Below are positions 4,258-50,739 of a DNA stretch of 64,000 nucleotides, piece by piece. Both the position numbers and the translations under genes were made by a program. How positions within the stretch are numbered: the first letter of the stretch is position 1; every line of letters begins with the position of its first letter. Source of the stretch: the human T2T-CHM13v2.0 reference genome, Homo sapiens; NCBI GenBank assembly GCA_009914755.4, contig CP068257.2, positions 40,544,001-40,608,000 on the forward strand, given 5' to 3'. The notes below the pieces were generated by a model. That model did not search any database. It was given only the letters and a program-made list of their open reading frames with translations, and had not been told where the DNA came from.

Positions 4258-4905
4258 AGAGCCCAGTGGGGAACGGCTGAAATGTACAATTAATAAATTG
4301 CACTAAAACAAAGGTAACTTGAGTTTTGAGCATTTGTTACCTTTGTTTTAATACAATTTATTAATTGTACATTTTATGGTATTATTATGATATAATTTTA
4401 CGATCATCATGCTGTGGCAGTTATTACCTCTGTTGCATCTGTATGGCAGAAATCCTGTGTAACAGGAGGTTTGCTAGGGCACACCGGTCTCTGCATTGAG
4501 CTTCGTCGTGTCCACAGCTTGAACCAACCATCGCAAGAGCATTTACGTCACGGAAATCAGCATGTGCTACAAATCGAGGCTTGATTTTATCGTCTTATTG
4601 ATTATCTAGACTCAAGGAAATGATGAAAATCTTCGATGAACGCAGATTAATCTACAAGTGTGCTATGGTCATAACTGTTACACTGTAAATAGCATAAAAC
4701 GTTGTCAAATCGTAGTTGAATTGCAGCTATAGGCTGGCTACAAATATGAGAGTTTGGCCAAAATCAACAAAAGCATCTGTGTGGACCAGTTGGCTCTATG
4801 GAATTTATGATAAAAAGTCCTGTATATTTATTATTTGTAAATTGTGTGCTTCCTTTGCATGAATAAAACTTAGAGTGGACTGACGTACAGATGTTTACAC
4901 ACACG
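4258..4905 (+). other. AT-rich block that retains CpGs (observed/expected ~0.6 vs ~0.2 in neighbours), many TAAT/ATTA cores, AATAAA at 4862-4867. Candidate conserved noncoding element or terminal 3'UTR-like segment.
   Basis: About 15 CpGs in ~640 bp at ~38% GC. Motifs include caattaataaattg, gattaatctac and tattgattatctag. gaataaaac lies near the 3' edge and no A-tail follows. Confidence 0.3.
4270..4372. repeat. Near-perfect palindrome: 39-bp arms and an 18-nt loop (hairpin-capable)
   Basis: aaatgtacaattaataaattgcactaaaacaaaggtaac / loop ttgagttttgagcattt / gttacctttgttttaatacaatttattaattgtacattt. Two mismatches in the stem. Confidence 0.85.
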
Positions 4906-7497: not shown

Positions 7498-7815
7498 AAA
7501 CGAAACACGGAGAGAGACATACCCAAACATATACACAGACACACACACACGAATACACACAGACACACACAGAGAGACACAGAGAGACACACGCAAACAC
7601 ATACACACACTGACACACAGACACACATATACAGAGACACACATATACAGAGACACACATAGGTACACACAGACACAGAGAAACACACACACACACAAAC
7701 ACACACATACAGACATATGCACAGAGAAACACACACACAGAAGACATACAGACACACACACAGAGACACACACAGCCACATACAGACACACAGAGCCTCA
7801 CACACAGGCACACAC
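7498..7815. repeat. Compound CA-rich simple repeat, (ACACAGAGAC)n-like, right part
   Basis: Runs of acacacagacacacacagagagacacagagagacac... The -strand ORFs here (Cys/Val-rich) and the +strand ORFs (His/Thr-rich) are translation artefacts. Confidence 0.9.
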
Positions 7816-8199: not shown

Positions 8200-9495
8200 G
8201 GAGTGAGGGTGAGTGAGGGGCAGATTCAGATGGCTGTTCAGGGGCGAGTGTGGGGAGACTCGTGGCTGTGCGGGGGTGAGTCAGGGGAGACTTGTGTGGC
8301 TGTGCAGGGGTGAATGGGGGGAGACACATGGCTGGGCAGCAGTGAGTGGGGGGAGGCTTGCATGGCTGTGCAGGGGTAAGTTGGGGAAGACTCCCATGGC
8401 TGTGCAGGGGTGAGTTGGGGGAGACTTGCACGGCTGGGCAGTGGTGAGTAGGGGGAGACTCGCATGGCTGTGCAGGGGTGAGCTGGGGAGAGACTCACTT
8501 TGCTGTGCAGGGATAAGTGAGGAGGAGACTCAAATGTCTGGGCAGGAGTGAGTGAGCGGTGACTCACATGGCTGGGCAGGGGTGTGTGAGAGAGGGAGAC
8601 TCACGTGGCTGGGCAGGGGTGAGTGAGGAGGAGACTCACAAGGCTGGGCAGGGGTTAGTAGGGGGTGACTCCTATGGCTGGGCAGAGGTGAGTGGGGAGA
8701 GGCTCCCATCGCTGGGCAGGGATGAGTGAGGGGAGACTCATGGCTGTGCAGGGGTGAGTGAGAAAGGGAGACTCCCATGGCTGGGCAGGGGTGAGTTGGG
8801 GGAGACTCATATGGCTGGGTAGGGGTGAGTGGGGGGAGACTCCTATGGCTGGGCAAGGGTGAGTGAGAGGAGACTCATAGGGCTGTGCAGGGATGAGTTG
8901 GGGGGAGACTTACGTGGCTGTGCAGGGGTGAGTCGGGGGAGACTCGCATAGCTGTGCAGGGGTGAGTGGGAGGAGACTCACGTGGCTGTGCAGGGGTGAG
9001 TGGGGGAAGACTCGCATGGCTGTGCAGGGATAAGTGAGCAGGAGACTCACATGTCTGGGCAGGAGTAAGTGAGGGGTGACTCACATGGCTGGGCAGGGGT
9101 GTGTGAGAGAGGGAGACTCACATGGCTGGGTAGGGGTGAGTGAGGAGGAGACTCACATGTCTGTGCAGGGGTTAGTCGGGGGTGACTCCTACGGCTGGGC
9201 AGAGGTGAGTCGGGAGAGACTCCCATGGCTGGGCAGGGGTAAGTGAGAGGAGACTGACAGGGCTGTGCAGGGGTGAGTGAGAGAGGGAGACTCACATGGC
9301 TGGACAGGGGTGAGTTGGGGGAGACTCACACGGCTGGGTAGGGGTGAGTGGGGGGAGACTCCTATGGCTGGGCAGGGGTGAGTGAGAGGAGACTCACAGG
9401 GCTGTGCAGGGGTGTGTGAGAGAGGGAGACTCACATGGCTGGGCAGGAGCTAGTGAGGGTGAGACTGCATGGCTGGGCAGGGGTGGGTGAGGGAT
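8200..9495. repeat. GC-rich minisatellite (VNTR-like): ~36 tandem units of ~34-37 bp, consensus about GGCTGKGCAGGGGTGAGTGRGGGGAGACTCACATG
   Basis: Direct tandem units are visible throughout. Block 8502-8895 reappears at 9019-9412, giving a ~517-bp higher-order period. The proline-rich -strand ORFs are artefacts. Confidence 0.95.
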
Positions 9496-14406: not shown

Positions 14407-14493
14407 GATTAGATGGATTCTTGTCATCTAAATGTTCTTGTGAACATTTGTGTATCAATATTTGTGGATTTGCTCACTGTGAACATTTGTGTA

Positions 14494-14560
14494 TTTGCTC
14501 ACAGATGAGTAAGACTAAGAATAATAGTCTTGAAACATTCATCTGTGAGCAAATACACAA
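14494..14560. repeat. Small perfect hairpin: 18-bp arms gtatttgctcacagatga / tcatctgtgagcaaatac with a ~30-nt loop
   Basis: Read directly from the sequence. The adjacent direct repeat gtgaacatttgtgtat appears twice. Confidence 0.8.
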
Positions 14561-17500
14561 AAAACAATACTGGAATAATCAGTGAATTGGTTAAAAATAA
14601 ACAGCTCTTTTTAAAAAATTAACTTTATTGAGATGTAATTTGCACATTCAACAATGCACCCGTTGTAAGTATACAGTTCAATGCATATGTCCTGAGGGAA
14701 GGTTTGAGGTTCCTTTTTCTTGTTCTCATATGGATCCCCTGTTGTTCCAGTACCATTTGTTGGAAAGACTATCCCTCCTTCCCCCATTCAATTACCTTAG
14801 CATTTTTTGTCAACAATTAATTGAGAGTATATTTCTGGACTCTCTGTCCTGTCCCATGAGTCTTTATGTCTATGTTTATATCCATACTACAATGTCCTGA
14901 TATAAGCCTTAAAAGTATGTAGTGGAAGTCTTCTAATTTTATTCATTTTCCAAAAAACTTTTGGCTGTTCTAGATCCTCTGCATTTCCATATTAAATTTT
15001 TGAGTCAGCTTATCAATTTCTACAAAAAAAGAATGCTAAGCTTTTTAAAGAGTTTTGCAGAATTAATGTTATTTCTGCCTAAAATGTTTAGTAGAATTCA
15101 CCAATGAAGCCATCTGGGGCTACAGTTTTCTTTGAGGAAAGCTTTTAACTACAAATTCAATTTCTTTAATAGATACAGGAATATTCAGGTTATTGATTTT
15201 TTTCTTGAGTGAGCTATGGTAGTTTGTGTTTTTCAAGAAATGTTTTTCAATTAACTTGTCAAATTTATTGGCATAAAGTTATTCATAATATTCCTTTATT
15301 AATCATTCTTTTAAAGTTTGTAGTATTTATAGTAATGTCCTCTTTATAATTTCTGATATTGGTGACTTCTGTCTTTTCTCTTTTTTAAAAATTTTTTTAT
15401 TTTCCTGTCTAGAGATGTATTAATTGTGTTGATCTTGTCAAGTAACTTGGTTTTATTTTCATTGATTTTTCTATTCCTTTTTTCTCTTCTGTTTCGTTGA
15501 TTTCCACCCTCAGGTTTATCATTTTCTTCCTTTCATAATTTGAGTTTAATTTGCTTTTTTCTTCCTTCTTGTGTTGCATATATGGATAATTGATTTGAGG
15601 CCTTCGTTCTTTTTTTTACATAAACATTTAATGCTATCAACTTCCCATTAAGTGCTACTTTAGCTGCATTTCACAAATTTTGATATGGTGTGATTTTATT
15701 TTCATTCAATTCAAAATATTTTCTAATTGCCTTTGTAATTTGTTCTTTAGCCTATGGGCTATTTAAATGTGTGTTATAATTTCCAAATACTTGACAGATT
15801 TTTCACATATTTTTCTCTTATTGATTCCTAGTTTAATTATCTTATGGTTAAAAAAGAAATACTACATAATTCGAACCACTTTATCTTTATTATGATTTGT
15901 TTAATGGCCTGGGATATGGTCTATCTTGGTAAGCATGCTACATGTACTTGGAAAGAATGTGTATTTATTTGTCAGTAGTTGGGTGGAGTGTCAGTAATTG
16001 TGAACTGGGCAAGCAGGTTGATAGTGGCTAGTACTTTGTTCCTGAGTAAGGAACATATTCTTACTAACTTCCTGTCTACTTGTTCTATCAATTACTGAGA
16101 AGAATGTTTAATTGCCAACTCTAATTGCTGATTTGTCTGTTCCTTCTTTGAGATCTGTCAGCTTTTCCTTTATGTATTTTTGGAGTTCTATAATTAAGTA
16201 CATTGACATTTAGAATTGTTATATCCTCATAATACATTTCTTCCTTTATCATTCTGAAATGTCCCTCCCTATCCCTGGTAATATTCCTTGTTCTAAAGTC
16301 TACTTTGCCTGATGTTAACATAGCTATGCCAGCTAATTTCATGCCTAGTATATGCATGGCATATTTTTTCTCATGTTTTTAATCTTTAATCTATCTGTGT
16401 CATTATGTGGATTTAAAGTCAGTTTCTTGTAGACAGCATAAATTTGGGCCCTGCTTTCTTGTCCAGTTTGACAGTCTTTGTCTTTTAATTGCAGTGCTTA
16501 GCCTGTTTATATGTGAGATAATTTGGGTGTGGTTGAGTTTAAGTCTACTATCTTGTAATTTGCTTCATTTGTCCCATCATTTACTTGTTTCTTTTTCCTT
16601 TTTTCCTCTCCTATTTTGATCAATTGAATATTCAGTATTTTTTTTAAATCATGGTAAAATACCCATAACCTAAAATTTAAATTGAGTGTTTTTTAGTGTT
16701 TCATTTTATCGCCAAAACTGGCTCGTTGGTTGTACTTTTTTTGTTATTTAGTGGTCGCTCTGTTGCTTTTTAGTATCAGGCTCTAGGGCATCTTCATTTG
16801 TCACAGGCCATCTCCAAATCACAGGACACCTCTTCCCCATGTAGTATAAGAACCTTACAACTATAACTGTGTACTTTCATTTCCCCACCCTCCCTTTGTA
16901 TTATTGTTTTCATACATTTTACTTTTACACATGTAGGATACACATGAGCCCTACAATACATTCCACATCATTTTTAAGCACTTCTTTTACGATCACAACT
17001 TAACAGAAAAGTAATTTTTAAATACAAATATCATTAACATAAGATGTCAAAATGACACAGCAACTACACGGCTTCTTCCTCTTGCTTCTAGAATGTACTG
17101 TTTGTACTTCAGTTGCAGCATTTTTATGCTGTTATTATTTATTTGTCTTTCTCTTGCATTAGACAATAAGGCCCTTGAGAGTAGAAACAATATCTATTCA
17201 TCTCGTAACTTTAGCACAATGCTTGGCACTTGGCGGGAGGTCAACAAATGTTGTACCATCACGGATTTCCTGACTGTCCAAGTGACTGACTGACTGAATG
17301 AAGGAATGATGAGCCTGCGGAAACACACATACCACACGCAGGTTGGGGCAGGCTCTAGCACACGCAACCAGATAAGCACCCGCCCCCTTGATAACTTTTA
17401 TGTGCGCCTCCTCCCCTCTGTCCTCACCTCTCAATGTTCAGCTTCTCATTTAAAATTTGGCAAGAGGAAAGAGGAAATCATGGACCATCAAAGAGTGCCT

Positions 17501-20896: not shown

Positions 20897-21264
<368 letters not shown>

Positions 21265-21700
21265 TTAGTGAAGTCATCCCTCAATGCCTCTAAGTAGTGA
21301 GTTTTTTAACACTGGAAGGTCTTGGCAATTTCTACTGTTCCACGTACTGTCCTTGGTTATTTGAATTGCTTAACAGACTGACCTTCAACCTGCCAGGAAT
21401 GCCTCCTGCAGAGGAGTCCCATGGATGTCCTTACTCTTCCTGGCAATGGCCTTAGAAATGTCAAACCATTTTCCCAGTGGCCCTCAAGCACTTCTCTGCA
21501 CCCCTTCACCCAAGCCACTTGCCTGCAAAGAAGCCTCCCGATCACTCCAACTTCCCTTCGAAGCTTCTCAGCTTCTTGGCTCCACGTGCTTTCTCTTGGC
21601 TACCATGTGGATTTTTAAAATCTGATTATTTTAGTAAGAAATGACCTCAGACCACAGTTTTGAAGTTGGCTTTATGAAGCACTAACAAACCACTTTAGAT

Positions 21701-21833
21701 CTTTAGGGTCAGGGAACCTAACCTTGCTCCTTTGCTCACTTGGCCATCGGCTGAGTGGCTTCTTCCCTACATACATCTGCAAGCGGATGGCCAAGTGAGC
21801 AAAGGAGCAAGGTTAGGTTCCCTGACTCTAAAG
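21701..21833. repeat. Long near-perfect hairpin palindrome: ~48-bp arms with 1 mismatch and a ~37-nt loop
   Basis: ctttagggtcagggaacctaaccttgctcctttgctcacttggccatc / loop ggctgagtggcttcttccctacatacatctgcaagcg / gatggccaagtgagcaaaggagcaaggttaggttccctgactctaaag. Confidence 0.9.
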
Positions 21834-22562
21834 ATTTAACCCCAATATAGACATGACACACTCCTCTCTTCCATCCAGAAGGTGTCCTGCTCCATCTGAC
21901 AGCAAGTTCTGTCTCCTTTGGGCTTCTGCAAAACATGGACATTTGATCAAACGCTGCTTAAATGTCGGCCATGTTTTGGATGCTCGAGTGGCCATGCGTG
22001 TTCGTGTGTCTGAGCGTGTGTGTGCAAGTGCACAGAACTTAGCTCCATTAATTAGCCTGTCAACCCGAGGTTGGAGACCAAGTTTTCCGGAGCTTTGGAT
22101 TCTGCACGGTGCCTTCCTAGCCAGCACTCAATAAACACTTTTAAATGAACTCAAGACCTGCTTCAAGATTTACAAAGGTGTTTTCCTTCTGTTCCACTCC
22201 CGGGTCTGCACCTTGCCCTCACAGATCTGAAGCTCACAGGACCTCCAGCACCAGCCTGCTCTTACACCCGCTCAGCTGCCAGAGCCTTCTGGGGGTTTTT
22301 GATGGCCACACAGTCACAGCGGGAGACAGGGCAGCTGCTTTGGTGTTTCTTTCTGGAACCTCAAAATGGTGCATGCTTTAAGATTGAAGATCTGAACATG
22401 CAAAACCCAACACTGAGGTATCAGTGCATGCCCTGGAAGAGCTGAGGCTCACCAGAGCCTTCCTGCCGGGCTGCCAATGCGCTTCCCAGAGCTGAAAAGG
22501 ATCACAAGGTGACTGGGGAGACATGATCGCCAAAGCCTAACCTCAAACTCACAGTGAAATAG

Positions 22563-22945
<383 letters not shown>

Positions 22946-24199: not shown

Positions 24200-27171
<2,972 letters not shown>

Positions 27172-29451: not shown

Positions 29452-30432
29452 ATGTGTGTGTGTGGTGTAAGTGTGTCTGTGCGGTGTGTGTAGTGTGTGT
29501 ATGTGGTGGGGTGTGTGTGTGGTGTGTTTGTGTGGTATATGTCTGGTGTGTGGTGTGGTGTATGTATGGGAGATGTGTGGTGTGTGATGTGTGGTGTGCA
29601 TGTAGTGTGTATGTAGTGTCTGTATGGTGTGTGGTGCGGTGTGTGGATGTGGTGTGTGGTGTGTGTGATGTATGGTGTGTGGTACACTGTGTGCATGTGT
29701 GTGTGTGTGGTATGGTGTGTGTGATGTATGGTGTTGTGTGTGTGTGTGTGGTATGTGGTATATGTATATGTGATATGTGTGTGGTATGTGTATGAGGTGT
29801 GTGGTTGTGTGTGTGAGGTGTGTGGTGTAGTGTGATGTGGTGTGTGTCTGAGATGTGTGGTGTGGTGTGTGTAGTGTGTGTGTTGTGTGGCATGTGTGGT
29901 GGTGTGTGTGTGAGGTGTGTGGTGTGGTGTGTGTTTATGGTGTGTGTGTGTGAGGTAGGTGTTTTGTGTTGTATGTGTTGTGTGTGGTATATGATGTGGT
30001 GTGGCACGGTATGTGTGTGAGGTGTGTGGTGTATGTGGTTTGTGTGTGTGGTGTGTGGTTTGTGTGATGTGTGTGAGGTGTGTGGTGTGGTGTGTGTCGT
30101 TTGTATGTGTGATGTGTGTGGCGTGTGTGCACACATCTGTGTGGTGTGCGTGTAGTGAATGTGTGTTTGGGTATGTGTGTGTTGTGTGTGTATGGTGTGA
30201 GTGGTGTGTGGTGTGTATGTGTGGTGTGTGTGTGGTGTGTGGTGTATATGTGTGGTGTGTGTATGTGCCTGTGTGTGTGGTGTGCATGGGGTGAATGTGT
30301 GTTTGGGTATGTGTGGTGTGTGTGTGGTTTGTGTGTGTGGTGTATATGTGTGGGGTGTGTGTGTGGTGTATATATGGGGCATGTGTGTGGTGTGTGTAGT
30401 CTGTGTGCATGGCATGGGGTGTGGGTGTCTGT
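29452..30432. repeat. About 1 kb of GT-rich cryptic simple repeat, (TG)n interrupted by GGTGTGT/TGTGTGGTGTG motifs
   Basis: Continuous gtgtgtgtggtgtaagtgtgtctgtgcggtgtgtgtagtgtgtgtatgtggtgg... The 358-aa and 344-aa His/Thr/Pro-rich - strand ORFs and the Cys/Val-rich + strand ORFs are repeat artefacts. Confidence 0.95.
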
Positions 30433-47112: not shown

Positions 47113-48671
47113 TGTGCTTTTTTTTTTCACCTCACTTGCCACTATAAAGCCTGCCACCAGATGTAGCTTAACTGTCACTTGCCACTCACTGATAGGGTTT
47201 TGATACGTGTCTGCAAGCAGTTGATTTATTATGGTCTCTGTGCAGTCAAACCTCTCTGCCAATGTTAATCTGTATTTGCAGCCACTCCCCAGCACGAGCA
47301 CCAGCACCTCAGCTCCACCTTAGATCATCAGGCATTAGTTAGATTTAGATTCTCATTAGAAGCGTGCAACCTAGATCCCTTGAGTGCTCAGCTCACAATA
47401 GGGTTTTCACTCCTATGAGAGTCTAATGCCGCCACTGATCTGACAGGAGGGAGAGCTCAAGCCATAAAGCTCCCTCGCTTGCCGCTCACCTCCTGCTGTG
47501 TGGCCCCATTCCTAACGGGCCACGGACTGGTCTGCAGCCCAGGGGTTGGGGACTTGTCTTACATGACAGGGTGAGCTACCCTGAGTTAATCTGAGTGAGC
47601 TTCATTCTGTCGACCTTCTTCCACTCCACCACAGCGCTACACCAACCTGAACTTCGCTTCCTGAGACCTAAGATTCAGCCCCGTGCTCAGCAGACATCAG
47701 GGATCACCGACTCTGTGCCAGGAGCTGTTCTTGATGCTGGGAACGCAGGGGTGGACAAAACAGAGAAAGCCCTGCCCTCAGGTGTGGTCAGAAGAGACAG
47801 GGAAGGATTTGGAAGCTAAAGCTCAGATCCAGACTGGGCTTGTTTCAACTCGTTCCGTGGGCCTGATGTAGTCTAGAGATGATTCTTGGTGTGGGCTGTG
47901 GGAGCTCCTGCGGTGTAGTTTGGTGAGGGGCCAGCCCGAGGCAAACTGGGGACCTGTGTCTCCAACCTTCAGCACTTCTGCCCTTCAGGGTCATCCCTCC
48001 AGGTGCCCCACCCTGGGGACTTGAACTCTGCCCTTGTCCCCCAAACCACCTTACCCTAATGCTGTGGTTCTCCTGGTCCATGCAGGGCGCAGTGTCCTGC
48101 TGAGTGTGCAGGTGCCTGTCCCTGCCCTCTGCAATGTCATCTCCATGCAGCAGCAGCGTTTACCCACGGATGGATCCCCACCCCTGGACCATGCCTGGGT
48201 ACAGGTTTTGTTCCGGTTGGTCTGCTATTGAGTATGGAGGCCAGGGTTCCACTCCAGACCCCTCTGACTCCCCTCACCAGGCTGTTCCCAGAGACTTGTG
48301 AGGGAAGTTGACAATAAATATGTAAATTCAGATGGGTTTCATGTTAGTGAAAACCTGAATATTGAAATATTACAAACCTAGGGTTGAAGATCTCAGGCTG
48401 GTGGGAGTGCCTTTGTGCATGTATCCACCCACTTTTCCTTGCAGAACTTTCTACACAACAATTCAGCACAGGAAGCATGGAGGAGTAAAGCCATCTGGGG
48501 AGAGATGAGCAGTGAAAACCGGGGGCCGGCAGGTTAGAGGAGGGGTGTGATCTCAGGGTGCAACGCTGTTGAATGCACGCCTCCCTCCCCCCATCCCTCT
48601 CTCGGCAGCTCCCAGGCAACTTAGTCACCCCCATCTTAATCTTACTCAACAGTCACAACAGTCTCTCTCCC

Positions 48672-48969
48672 TTTTTTTTTTTCGTTTGAGACAAGGTCTC
48701 GCTCTGTCACCCAGGCTGAAGTACAGGGGCGCGATCACAGCTCACTGCAACCTCTGCCTCCCAGGCTCAAGCGATCCTCCCACCTCAGCCACCTGAGTCG
48801 TTGAGACTACAGGTGCCCACCACCACGCCTGGCTAATTTTTAAAATTTTTTATAGAGATGAGGTCGCACCCTGTTGCTCAGGCTGGTCTTGAACTCCTGG
48901 GCTCAAGCGATCCTCTGGCCTCAGCCTCCCAAAGTGCTGGGATTACAGGTGTGAGCCACAATGCCCAGA
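48672..48969 (-). mobile_element. Alu SINE on the minus strand
   Basis: T12 then CGTTTGAGACAAGGTCTCGCTCTGTCACCCAGGCTGAAGTACAGGGGCGCGATCACAGCTCACTGCAACC... TSD is CAACAGTCACA. Confidence 0.92.
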
Positions 48970-48997: not shown

Positions 48998-49219
48998 TAG
49001 ACTGTTTGCTATTGGCAAAAGGACAGACACAAAGACCAATGGAACAGAATAGAAAACCCAGAATCACACCCACTCAAAGATACAAAGCAAATCAGTGCAG
49101 GAAGGACAGCTTTTCCAGCAAGCGCTGCTGATGCATTTGGGTATCCACGGGCAGAAAAAAAGAAGAACCTGGACTTAAATTTTCTTATACAAAAGTTAAC
49201 TCAAAATGCATCATAGATG
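48998..49219 (+). mobile_element. L1 ORF2 segment in PLUS orientation. It forms the left arm of an inverted duplication whose partner is 49482-49703 inside the adjacent minus-strand L1.
   Basis: Translates to ..CLLLAKGQTQRPMEQNRKPRITPTQ.YKANQCRKDSFSSK..WVSTGRKKEEPGLKFSYTKVNSKCIIDVEHW, matching L1 ORF2 ..YWQKDR.IDQWNRIE..IYGQLIFDKGAK.IQWGKDSLFNKWCWENW...[21 protein letters not shown]. It is also the reverse complement of 49482-49703 at about 95% identity. Confidence 0.8.
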
Positions 49220-50739
49220 TAGAACATTGGAGAATTTTGAAAGTTCTTCAGGCATTATGAATCCTAATCCTTTGTTGGAGATGAGATTTGCAGATATTTT
49301 CTCCTGGTCTGTTATTAACACTTTTCGTCTTCTTAACAGGGTCTTTCTCAGAGTCAACATTTTTCATTTTGATGTAGTCCCGTTTATCAATTTTTCATTT
49401 TATGGGTCATGCTTTTGGAACTCTTTGGCTCCGTATCCTAAAGATTTCCTCCTAATATTTTTTCCCTGAAAGGTTATTTCACATCTATGATGCATTTTGA
49501 GTTAACTTTTATATAAGAAAATTTAAGTCCAGTTTCTTTTTTTCTGCCCGTGGATACCCAAATGTGTCAGCAGCACTTGCTGGAAAAGCCATCCTTCCTC
49601 CAGTGATTTGCTTTGTATCTTTGAGTGGGTGTGATTCTGGGTTTTCCATTCTGTTCCATTGGTCTTTGCGTCTGTCCTTTTGCCAATAGCAAACAGTCTG
49701 GATTATTGTAGCTATAAAATAAGTCTTGATACCAGGTAAGCTGATTTCTCCTCCTTTATTCTTTGTTTTCAAAATCGTTTCAACTATTCTAACTCCTTGG
49801 CCTTTCTTTAAATTTTAGACTACTCTTGTTTATATATACAGAAAATTTTGCTGGGATTTTAATAGCAATTGCATTAAACATGCATATTTTGTTGATCATT
49901 GATATTTTTACTACGTTAAGTCTTCCAATCTATAAACAGTATTTCTCTCCTTTTTTCTTTAGTTCTTTTTTTACTTCTTTTATCAGGATTTTGTAGGTTT
50001 TAGCATACAAGTCCTGTACCTGTTTTGTTACATTTACTACTAAGTATTGAATTTTGTTTGAGCAGTTGTGAATGGTGTCACGTTTTTAATTCCAGTGTCC
50101 ATGTGTTCATTGACAGAGCATAGAAATAAAATTTATGTATGTTTATCTTGTATCCTGCAACCTTGCTTGAACTCACTTATTGTTTCAGGAGTGCTTTTGT
50201 GGATAGATTGGGATTTCCTAGGTAGACAATCATGTCATTTGAAAATAGAAACAGTTTTGCTTTTTTTTCCCTTTCCAATCTGTCTGCCATTTATTTCCTT
50301 TTCTTGCTTTACCACACTGGCTGGAAATTCCAGCATCATGTTGAATAAGAGTGGTGAAAGCAAACATCCTTGCATTATTTTTGATATTAAGGAGGAAGCA
50401 TTGAGTTGTTCACTATTAATTATATTATTAACTGTAGATTTCTTGATGCTGTTTATCAAGTGGAACTTCTCTATTCTGATTTTTCTGAGTGTTTTAACCA
50501 TGAATGGGTAAAGAATTTTGTCAAGTGCTTTTTCTGCATCAATTGGCATGATCATGTGATTTTTTTCCTCTTTTATCTATTAATATAGTATATTACATTG
50601 ATTGACTTTCAACTATTGAACCAGCCTTACGTCTCTGGAATAAACCCAACTTGAATGTGGTATATAATTTTTAAAATATATTCCTGACTCTGTCTGCTAG
50701 TATTTTGTTTGGGTTTTCTGTATTTATATTCATGAGGGC

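What the first reader, a model, noticed from the sequence alone, without database searches (positions are those of the whole stretch)
21701..21833. Near-perfect 48-bp-stem hairpin palindrome
ctttagggtcagggaacctaaccttgctcctttgctcacttggccatc pairs with gatggccaagtgagcaaaggagcaaggttaggttccctgactctaaag with a single mismatch. The loop is ~37 nt (ggctgagtggcttcttccctacatacatctgcaagcg). A perfect stem this long is rare by chance. Candidates are a young MITE-like palindromic insertion, a local inverted duplication, or a hairpin RNA source. Perfect long hairpins are classic precursors of endogenous siRNA or miRNA-like species, for example the MADE1-derived miR-548 family.
Basis: seen in the sequence. 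Interest (0 to 1): 0.55.

Follow-up and report, generated by a model that had tools for sequence, protein, structure and literature searches.

The report
Lone near-perfect palindrome in human DNA
A real 145-bp near-perfect palindrome sits in unique human sequence and is most likely an ordinary by-product of a DNA-replication copying slip, with no sign so far that it is a mobile element or a small-RNA gene.

Summary
The arms are 21695-21752 and 21782-21839, 58 nt each with 55/58 complementary, separated by a 29-nt spacer. Chance expectation is about 1e-17 per genome. An independent human contig (L064) carries the identical sequence, so it is not an assembly artefact. The palindrome lies in about 1.5 kb of unique DNA between two Alus.

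No other copy was found in the window, in 111 kb of other human contigs, or in four collection scans. A MADE1 control 20-mer gave 63 hits in the metagenome collection. No target-site duplication exists that is independent of the palindrome. No Rfam family reaches threshold, and no paper prints the sequence.

The best explanation (0.55) is a local inverted duplication made in one step by replication template switching. Two or three substitutions followed, so it probably predates the human-chimpanzee split. A low-copy MITE remains possible (0.2). If transcribed it would fold at -110 kcal/mol. The 54-58 bp stem is far longer than the 35 bp of canonical pri-miRNAs. Expression and ancestral state could not be tested here. 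It is an ordinary member of a known kind.

The parts
21695..21752 (.). Left arm of the palindrome (58 nt).
   Evidence: the repeat finder I1; base-by-base comparison; identical in independent contig L064
21753..21781 (.). Spacer or loop, 29 nt, not self-complementary.
   Evidence: MFE structures
21782..21839 (.). Right arm of the palindrome (58 nt), the reverse complement of the left arm at 55/58 positions.
21698..21707 (.). Two transition differences between the arms (21698 G vs 21836 T; 21707 G vs 21827 T). They are G:U wobbles in + strand RNA and A-C mismatches in - strand RNA.
   Evidence: energy difference between strands
21749..21752 (.). G-G mismatch (21749/21785) followed by a 3-nt GCT/AGC match at the top of the stem. 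This is a possible microhomology at a template-switch point, or a chance match.
21176..22646 (.). Unique, non-Alu sequence block that contains the palindrome. It is bounded by Alu copies at 20898-21175 and 22647-22929.
   Evidence: Alu map; blastn of the block against the window plus 111 kb of human contigs finds only itself and the palindrome

Best explanation
The element is a single-locus local inverted duplication in unique human DNA. Most likely one replication template-switch event (TSM) made it. The nascent strand folded back on itself or jumped to the opposite strand a few tens of bases away. It then copied about 54-58 nt in reverse-complement orientation and returned to the original template. 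That would create a perfect hairpin-forming repeat with a 29-37 nt loop in one step. Two or three point substitutions have accumulated since, so the event is millions to tens of millions of years old and probably predates the human-chimpanzee split. It is most likely a neutral mutational by-product. If the region is transcribed, the RNA would form a very stable long hairpin, but nothing shows that it is processed or used. Shown here: the palindrome is real, non-random, reproducible, sharply bounded, and found at no other place I could search. Inferred: the template-switch mechanism, the age, and neutrality.
For: The repeat is real and far beyond chance. It is identical in an independent human assembly. 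Its boundaries are sharp on both sides, with 2 of 14 outward positions pairing and a non-complementary spacer. The surrounding 1.5 kb is unique sequence with no similarity elsewhere in the window or in 111 kb of other human contigs.

No other copy of the arm turned up. Exact 20-22-mers gave 0 hits in metagenome contigs, genome contigs (two scans) and viral contigs. A MADE1 20-mer control gave 63 human-type contigs in metagenome contigs.

No target-site duplication is independent of the palindrome itself.

Template switching is documented to make perfect hairpins in one event. PMC10710096 reports 53,666 putative TSMs in human genic regions, of which 31,007 created new stems. Its miRNA-like class is defined as stems of 30-55 bases. 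Events of 62, 90, 119 and 125 bp and up to 318 bp are reported in PMC9435742, so a 54-58-nt copy is within range.

Three more short-spacer or local near-perfect inverted repeats lie in the same 64 kb. This shows that such structures recur as ordinary sequence features.
Against: The defining test could not be run with these tools. That test is an outgroup or ancestral sequence that has one arm and the spacer but unrelated sequence in place of the other arm.

The copy-number evidence is limited. It used exact words, and the collection holds by my rough estimate only 5-10% of a human genome equivalent. A low-copy or old diverged repeat family would be missed.

The arm identity of 95% does not separate the hypotheses well. 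With only 3 differences the 95% interval for age is about 5-76 My at 1e-9 per site per year. A few MADE1 copies in the sample also reach about 96-97% over shorter arms.

The possible microhomology (GCT/AGC) is interrupted by a G-G mismatch and could be chance (1/64).
Confidence: 0.55

Rival explanations
1. The element is a low-copy palindromic MITE, for example a Tc1/mariner-type non-autonomous element of 139 bp (21698-21836) with 55-nt terminal inverted repeats, inserted at a TA dinucleotide.
For: The shape is MITE-like: almost the whole element is inverted repeat with a short internal segment. TA lies immediately outside 21698 and 21836. The arm divergence is compatible with an insertion 37-50 My ago when Hsmar1/MADE1 was active (PMC9062482). 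P(3 or fewer of 58 mismatches) is 0.16-0.41 for arm mismatch rates of 7-10%. My searches could not exclude families of fewer than a few dozen young copies or a few hundred old copies.
Against: No second copy was found in the window, in 111 kb of human contigs, or as exact words in three collections, while the MADE1 control gave 63 hits.

The only flanking direct repeats (TA, AGATCT/AGATTT) are self-complementary. They are therefore explained by the palindrome simply extending outward. Read as palindrome the 9 outer positions match 8/9, and read as an 8-bp hAT duplication they match 5/8.

From memory, the termini (GATCTTTAGGG...) do not resemble the Tc1/mariner, hAT or piggyBac termini known in human.

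Typical MADE1 copies have much less perfect arms. In 22 full-length copies the median arm identity was 81% and the maximum 92.9%. At the median rate, P(3 or fewer of 58) is 0.0025.

Rfam's MITE-derived miRNA families do not match.
Confidence: 0.2
2. The element is a local inverted duplication produced by double-strand-break repair rather than by a replication-fork template switch. Possible routes are fold-back priming at a resected end or inverted insertion of a nearby fragment. The product would be the same but the enzymology different.
For: The same structural evidence applies as for the best explanation. The 3-nt GCT/AGC match at the apex could equally prime fold-back synthesis at a broken end.
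Against: Nothing in the sequence distinguishes this route from replication template switching. The published surveys attribute short events of this size in primate genomes to replication template switching (PMC10710096 and PMC9435742).
Confidence: 0.12
3. The element is a functional hairpin-RNA gene: an unannotated lineage-specific miRNA or endo-siRNA precursor, or a dsRNA element that is edited or sensed. Its structure would be maintained by selection. This concerns function and could sit on top of any of the origins above.
For: The RNA fold is extremely stable on both strands. Two of the three arm differences are G:U-compatible on the + strand. A CCCC (CNNC-type) tetramer directly follows the stem. 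TSM-born hairpins do sometimes become miRNAs (18 MirGeneDB genes; PMC10710096). Sub-threshold Rfam hits are all miRNA precursor models.
Against: No Rfam family reaches its gathering score in the window. The sub-threshold hits (49 bits or less, against cut-offs of 79-100) are to perfect-palindrome models and align through generic pairing.

The 54-58 bp stem is far from the preferred 35 bp (PMC10710096), and there is no basal UG.

No paper in 8 million prints any 14-17-mer of the arms apart from one coincidental mutant oligo.

Two of three differences being + strand wobbles is expected by chance about 26% of the time (my calculation).

Only 0.9% of miRNA-sized TSM hairpins are annotated miRNAs. 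No coding exon or CpG island was found to suggest a host transcript.
Confidence: 0.06
4. The element is an assembly or sequencing artefact, such as a fold-back chimera.
For: Artificial palindromes do arise in some library preparations.
Against: An independent short-read assembly from another sample has the identical 145 bp in the same 1.45-kb context. The arms differ at three positions, which a fold-back artefact would not produce.
Confidence: 0.01

Closest known systems
Template-switch-mutation (TSM) hairpins of primate genomes, including TSM-born miRNA loci such as hsa-mir-4713 and hsa-mir-576 (Monttinen, Frilander and Loytynoja 2023, PMC10710096; Loytynoja 2022, PMC9435742)
   Same: A reverse-complement copy of sequence lying a few tens of bases away gives a near-perfect stem with a loop. 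It sits in otherwise unique sequence at a single locus. The size is inside the reported range. A few substitutions accumulated after the event.
   Different: The ancestral state is not known here, so the TSM origin is inferred and not shown. The 54-58 bp stem is at or above the upper limit of their 'miRNA-like' class (30-55). There is no evidence of expression or processing.
MADE1 / Hsmar1 MITEs, the source of the miR-548 family
   Same: Both are short, almost fully palindromic elements. Both have TA next to the ends. Both can fold into long perfect hairpins if transcribed.
   Different: There is no sequence similarity to MADE1. No other copies were found, whereas about 7,000 Hsmar1 TIR-related sequences exist (PMC9062482) and the control scan gave 63 hits. 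The arms are longer (58 vs 37 nt) and the loop longer (29-37 vs about 6 nt). The arms are more alike than in typical MADE1 copies (95% vs a median of 81%).
Quasi-palindrome correction by strand switching in bacteria and yeast (the classical Ripley model; cited as the origin of the TSM concept in PMC10710096)
   Same: Intra- or inter-strand template switching makes or perfects inverted repeats in one step.
   Different: The classical cases correct pre-existing imperfect palindromes of a few to about 20 nt. Here a 54-58-nt arm would have been created, and whether any earlier partial complementarity existed is unknown.
Hairpin-RNA (hpRNA) endo-siRNA loci of Drosophila and mouse oocytes
   Same: Both have a long perfectly paired inverted repeat that could be diced into small RNAs.
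   Different: Those loci have arms of hundreds of bases, documented small RNAs and target genes homologous to the arms. None of this is known here, and the arms here are unique sequence with no other copy detected.

Membership tests
Template-switch mutation (TSM) product | Reverse-complement copy of a segment located nearby (within a few hundred bases) on the same molecule | tested here: met
   The arms are 29 nt apart and 55/58 complementary.
Template-switch mutation (TSM) product | Sharp switch points: similarity ends abruptly at both ends of the copied fragment | tested here: met
   Only 2 of the next 14 outward positions pair, and the spacer is not self-complementary.
Template-switch mutation (TSM) product | Copied fragment length within the observed range | tested here: met
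   The arm is 54-58 nt. Published events include 28, 62, 83, 90, 119 and 125 bp and reach 318 bp.
Template-switch mutation (TSM) product | Parent or outgroup sequence lacks the inverted copy: one arm plus spacer is present and the other arm is replaced by unrelated sequence | not testable with these tools
   No primate or mammalian genomes are reachable. ORF look-ups and a protein search returned only one human contig.
MITE (non-autonomous DNA transposon) | Terminal inverted repeats | tested here: met
   Trivially met, because the element is nearly all inverted repeat.
MITE (non-autonomous DNA transposon) | Target-site duplication flanking the element | tested here: inconclusive
   The only flanking direct matches are TA and AGATCT/AGATTT. 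Both are self-complementary and equally explained by extension of the palindrome. The palindrome reading matches 8/9 against 5/8 for an 8-bp duplication.
MITE (non-autonomous DNA transposon) | Multiple dispersed copies in the genome | tested here: inconclusive
   There were 0 further copies in the window and in 111 kb of human contigs. There were 0 exact-word hits in three collections against 63 for a MADE1 control. This excludes a high-copy young family. It does not exclude a low-copy or old one, because no complete human genome was searchable.
MITE (non-autonomous DNA transposon) | Similarity to a known transposon consensus or to MITE-derived RNA families | tested here: not met
   There is no Rfam family at threshold, including mir-548. 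Dfam and Repbase were not available.
Canonical animal miRNA precursor | Membership of a described miRNA family | tested here: not met
   There were 0 matches at gathering score in the window. The best sub-threshold hit is mir-2300 at 49.3 bits against a cut-off of 90, through generic perfect pairing.
Canonical animal miRNA precursor | Stem of about 35 bp with an unstructured apical loop of 10 nt or more and single-stranded flanks | tested here: not met
   The stem is 54-58 bp. The loop of 29-37 nt is adequate. The criterion is quoted in PMC10710096.
Canonical animal miRNA precursor | Discrete ~22-nt reads with fixed 5' ends and Drosha/Dicer dependence | not testable with these tools
   No small-RNA data are available. 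No paper prints the arm sequences.
Hairpin endo-siRNA (hpRNA) locus | Long inverted repeat with arms homologous to a target gene, and abundant 21-22-nt siRNAs | not tested
   The arms are only 58 nt. No homologous sequence was found elsewhere in what could be searched. Expression is unknown.

The most novel reading that the evidence does not exclude
The palindrome is a hominoid- or catarrhine-specific hairpin born by template switching. It is transcribed on the + strand, where two of its three imperfections are G:U wobbles. It yields small RNAs or acts as a long-dsRNA substrate for ADAR editing or PKR sensing. That would make it an unannotated young RNA gene caught soon after birth.
Probability: 0.05. 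Interest if true: 0.4.

Novelty: new member of a known kind. Interest (0 to 1): 0.17.

Why it matters
If the template-switch reading is right, this is one more example of a process already catalogued in tens of thousands of primate loci. It adds little on its own beyond being an unusually long and clean case, with 54-58-nt arms. It would matter more if small-RNA or editing data showed that the hairpin is expressed. It could then serve as a model for how a one-step mutation turns unique sequence into a structured RNA, and for how cells deal with a stem much longer than Drosha prefers. The cluster of four local palindromes in 64 kb might also be worth a look as a possible template-switch-prone region. 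My control for that is biased.

Tried and rejected
1. Known RNA family. Rfam at gathering threshold found nothing in 64 kb. The permissive scan gave only sub-threshold hits to perfect-palindrome miRNA models, plus weak lncRNA and snoRNA noise. Rejected as membership.

2. Literature search by sequence. Three searches used 14-17-mers of both arms in DNA and RNA alphabets. The only relevant-looking hit (PMC2387165) is a deliberately mutated TLR2-promoter oligo, which is a coincidence. The other hit was a plant transcriptome primer. The minisatellite sequence gave no hit.

3. The arm as part of an ancient L2 element. I thought the right arm and its flank resembled the L2 3' end (...CCTTCCCTGACC...TCTAAAATAG...). 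The remembered consensus is valid, because it finds 8 or more significant L2 copies in human DNA. However, neither it nor a profile built from those copies hits 21300-22400. Only a marginal ~45-nt L2/MIR-tail-like match appears at 22105-22149. Rejected.

4. hAT-type MITE with TAGGG ends and an 8-bp duplication, and piggyBac with TTAA. The flanks fit extension of the palindrome better than a duplication, and the piggyBac CCC/GGG termini are absent.

5. Retrieving orthologues through ORFs. Exact look-ups of four flanking ORFs gave one human contig. A protein homology search of the 99-aa ORF gave nothing. The cluster of the 66-aa ORF has one member. No non-human sequence was reachable.

6. Gene context. 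There is no CpG island. A codon-usage log-likelihood scan of 772 stop-free segments gave no convincing exon, with a best score of 19 bits. I ran no further search on this.

7. Arm identity as a clock to exclude a MITE. The first estimate looked decisive, with 0 of 22 MADE1 copies at 94.8% or higher. A second scan showed a few MADE1 pairs at 96-97% over 35-49 nt, and the Poisson interval is wide. I downgraded this to weak evidence.

8. Enrichment of palindromes in this window. There are 4 in 64 kb against 0 non-MADE1 in 111 kb of control contigs. This is not claimed, because de Bruijn assemblers tend to break contigs at inverted repeats, so the control is biased.

Full report
**1. What is there**

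The window is Alu-rich primate DNA, with about 24 full-length Alu matches in 64 kb. It is human. A 1,457-bp contig assembled from a human gut metagenome (L064, ENA ERZ981051, run ERR2045141) matches window 21318-22772 at 1453/1455 positions.

They lie at 21701-21748 and 21786-21833 and pair with one mismatch around a 37-nt loop. The repeat is slightly larger than reported. The repeat finder gives arms 21695-21752 and 21782-21839, 58 nt each, 95% complementary, 29 nt apart.

Base-by-base comparison shows three differences:
- 21698 G opposite 21836 T.
- 21707 G opposite 21827 T.
- 21749 G opposite 21785 G.

Outside the arms pairing stops at once, with 2 of the next 14 positions pairing. The spacer is not self-complementary.

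**2. Is it more than chance, and is it real**

An inverted repeat of 58 nt with at most 3 mismatches within 300 nt is expected about 2e-22 times in 64 kb and about 1e-17 times in a 3.1-Gb genome. The 37-nt core pattern occurs only at these two places in the window, and none of 100 shuffles gave a match.

Folding results:
- + strand RNA: -110.6 kcal/mol, z = -16.9.
- - strand RNA: -103.5 kcal/mol, z = -13.5.
- The 145-nt unit as single-stranded DNA: -63.2 kcal/mol.

The independent contig L064 is identical over the whole 145 bp, including the three arm differences. A fold-back artefact would give identical arms. So this is a genuine feature of the human genome and not an artefact of one assembly.

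**3. Surroundings**

The palindrome sits in a 1.47-kb block (21176-22646) between two Alus. That block has no similarity to anything else in the window or in 111 kb of other human contigs, apart from the palindrome pairing with itself. The window has no CpG island. A codon-usage scan of 772 stop-free segments found no convincing exon. The element is therefore intronic or intergenic, and I could not name the locus.

**4. Known RNA or known sequence?**

Rfam at gathering thresholds finds nothing in the whole window. A permissive scan of 21500-22050 gives sub-threshold matches to mir-2300, mir-552, mir-2068, MIR1219 and mir-764. Scores are 28-49 bits against cut-offs of 79-100. The alignments show that the score comes from generic perfect pairing and not from shared sequence.

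Full-text searches with 14-17-mers covering both arms, in DNA and RNA alphabets, found no paper that prints the sequence. The one apparent hit is an artificially mutated TLR2-promoter oligonucleotide.

**5. Mobile element?**

A MITE should have other copies and a target-site duplication.

Copies:
- Exact 20-22-mers from the arm gave no hit in metagenome contigs, in genome contigs (two different words) or in viral contigs.
- As a positive control, a 20-mer of MADE1 found 63 human-type contigs in the same metagenome collection. Twelve of these carry Alus.
- About 7,000 Hsmar1 TIR-related sequences exist in the genome (PMC9062482). Few of them keep an exact 20-mer. My rough estimate is that the collection holds about 5-10% of a human genome equivalent.
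- Zero hits therefore argues against a family with more than a few dozen well-preserved copies. It does not argue against a small or old family.

Target-site duplication:
- A systematic scan of boundary offsets found only TA, AT, AGATCT/AGATTT and a 3-nt CCA.
- TA and AGATCT are self-complementary, so they are what one sees if the palindrome simply continues.
- Read as palindrome, the outer nine positions match 8/9. Read as an 8-bp hAT-type duplication next to TAGGG ends, they match 5/8.
- A mariner-type TA insertion of a 139-bp element (21698-21836) cannot be excluded on this ground.

Arm identity:
- 22 full-length MADE1 copies from the control contigs have arm-to-arm identity with a median of 81% and a maximum of 92.9%. 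This compares with 94.8% here over 58 nt, and 97.9% over the 48-nt core.
- A second scan found a few MADE1 pairs at 96-97% over 35-49 nt.
- With three differences the age interval is wide.
- This is weak evidence only.

**6. Most likely origin**

A single-locus reverse-complement copy of sequence 29-37 nt away, with sharp ends, in unique DNA, is the expected product of a short-range template switch during replication. Published surveys show that this mechanism makes perfect stems in one step (PMC10710096):
- 53,666 putative events in human genic regions since the primate ancestor.
- 31,007 of these created new stems.
- 6,054 were miRNA-sized.
- Only 0.9% of those miRNA-sized stems are annotated as miRNAs.

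That study defines the miRNA-like class as stems of 30-55 bases. Event sizes of 28, 62, 83, 90, 119 and 125 bp and up to 318 bp are reported. A 54-58-nt copy is long but within range.

The 3-nt GCT/AGC match beyond the G-G mismatch at the top of the stem could be the microhomology that primed the switch, or it could be chance (1/64). This is inference. Which arm is the copy cannot be told without an outgroup. A double-strand-break fold-back route would give the same product.

**7. Age**

Two or three substitutions in 54-58 paired positions give point estimates of about 18-26 My at 1e-9 per site per year, and 37-52 My at 0.5e-9. The 95% intervals span about 2-150 My across both rates. If the event were younger than 1 My, the chance of seeing two or more differences would be 0.006. 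At 6.5 My it is 0.18 for two or more and 0.04 for three or more. I therefore predict the palindrome is shared with the African apes and probably with Old World monkeys, unless the copy was imperfect at birth. Gene conversion between the arms would make it look younger than it is.

**8. Function**

Nothing here shows function. If transcribed, either strand forms a very long stem. Two of the three imperfections are G:U wobbles on the + strand, but that pattern is expected by chance about a quarter of the time (my calculation).

The stem is much longer than the roughly 35 bp preferred by the Microprocessor. There is no basal UG. A CCCC tetramer follows the stem directly, but it is not diagnostic.

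From general knowledge, a 58-bp near-perfect RNA duplex would be a good ADAR substrate and long enough to bind PKR. That is a prediction and not a finding. As DNA, a 29-nt spacer makes cruciform extrusion unlikely (general knowledge).

**9. Base rate inside this window**

The same 64 kb holds three more local near-perfect inverted repeats:
- 39-41-nt arms with a 17-nt spacer at 4278-4376.
- 23-25-nt perfect arms with a 26-30-nt spacer at 14486-14561.
- A palindrome with arms of about 220 nt and a 260-nt spacer at 48999-49699.

The control contigs show none apart from MADE1. They are short de Bruijn assemblies that tend to break at inverted repeats, so I do not claim enrichment.

**10. Verdict**

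- A local inverted duplication, most likely by template switching, is the best explanation (0.55).
- A low-copy MITE remains possible (0.2).
- A functional hairpin RNA is unsupported (about 0.06).

The element is a new instance of a known and common kind of mutational product. The decisive tests could not be run with these tools. They are genome-wide copy number, Dfam annotation, primate orthologues and small-RNA data.

Noticed in passing
window 4278-4376: A second near-perfect hairpin-forming inverted repeat. It is AT-rich, with arms of 39-41 nt (95% complementary) and a 17-nt spacer. The RNA fold is -40.6 kcal/mol, z = -11.2.
   Followed up: partly
window 14441-14581: A perfect 23-25-nt inverted repeat (14486-14510 / 14537-14561) with a 26-30-nt spacer, folding at -43 kcal/mol. 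It lies next to a direct repeat of tgtgaacatttgtgtat...ttgctcac. This is a compound local rearrangement of the kind template switching produces.
   Followed up: partly
window 48999-49699: A larger palindrome with arms of about 220 nt (two blocks of 166 and 63 nt offset by an indel), 95% complementary, with a 260-nt spacer. It starts just 3' of an Alu (48688-48959). By eye the sequence looks like old L1. The arm identity is the same as at the 21.7-kb hairpin.
   Followed up: partly
window 1-64000 versus loci L001-L063: There are four local near-perfect inverted repeats in this 64-kb window. In 111 kb of human-derived metagenome contigs there are none other than MADE1. This may hint at a template-switch-prone region, but the control is biased because assemblers break contigs at inverted repeats.
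   Followed up: partly
window 8207-9493: A G-rich minisatellite with a 34-bp unit (GGGTGAGTGGGGGGAGACTCACATGGCTGGGCAG), about 37 copies at 77% match, with a 137-bp higher-order period. It causes a strong local GC skew of 0.50. There was no literature hit for the unit.
   Followed up: partly
window 29453-30407: About 1 kb of degenerate TG-rich simple repeat (TG, TGTGTGG and similar units). It generates long spurious His/Thr-rich ORFs on the - strand. A shorter degenerate (AC)n tract lies at 7533-7815.
   Followed up: no
window 21901-22100: A patch about 100 bp 3' of the hairpin retains CpGs: 8 CpG in 200 bp, observed/expected 0.69, in the top ~2% of 200-bp windows. It contains a TAATTA homeodomain-type motif (ccattaattagcc). 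It could be a conserved non-coding element. Conservation could not be checked.
   Followed up: no
window 22105-22149: A marginal ~45-nt match to the shared 3' tail of L2/MIR (...GTGCCT..GCACTCAATAAACACTTTTAAATGAA). The local alignment score was 34 against a maximum of 33 in 200 shuffles. It is unrelated to the hairpin arms. Clearer L2 3' end copies lie at 17135-17252 (+) and 47687-47781 (-).
   Followed up: partly
window 26611-27126 (- strand): A 171-aa ORF whose translation (…[23 protein letters not shown]…) looks, from memory, like an L1 ORF2 fragment. It was not tested against a family library.
   Followed up: no
locus L064 (ENA ERZ981051, human gut metagenome contig): Host-derived human DNA in a gut metagenome assembly covers window 21318-22772. 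There is one substitution and a 1-nt length difference in the poly-T of the adjacent Alu. The contig was reachable only through an exact look-up of a spurious 66-aa ORF. It was not found by the DNA pattern scan of metagenome contigs, so the two collections differ in content.
   Followed up: yes
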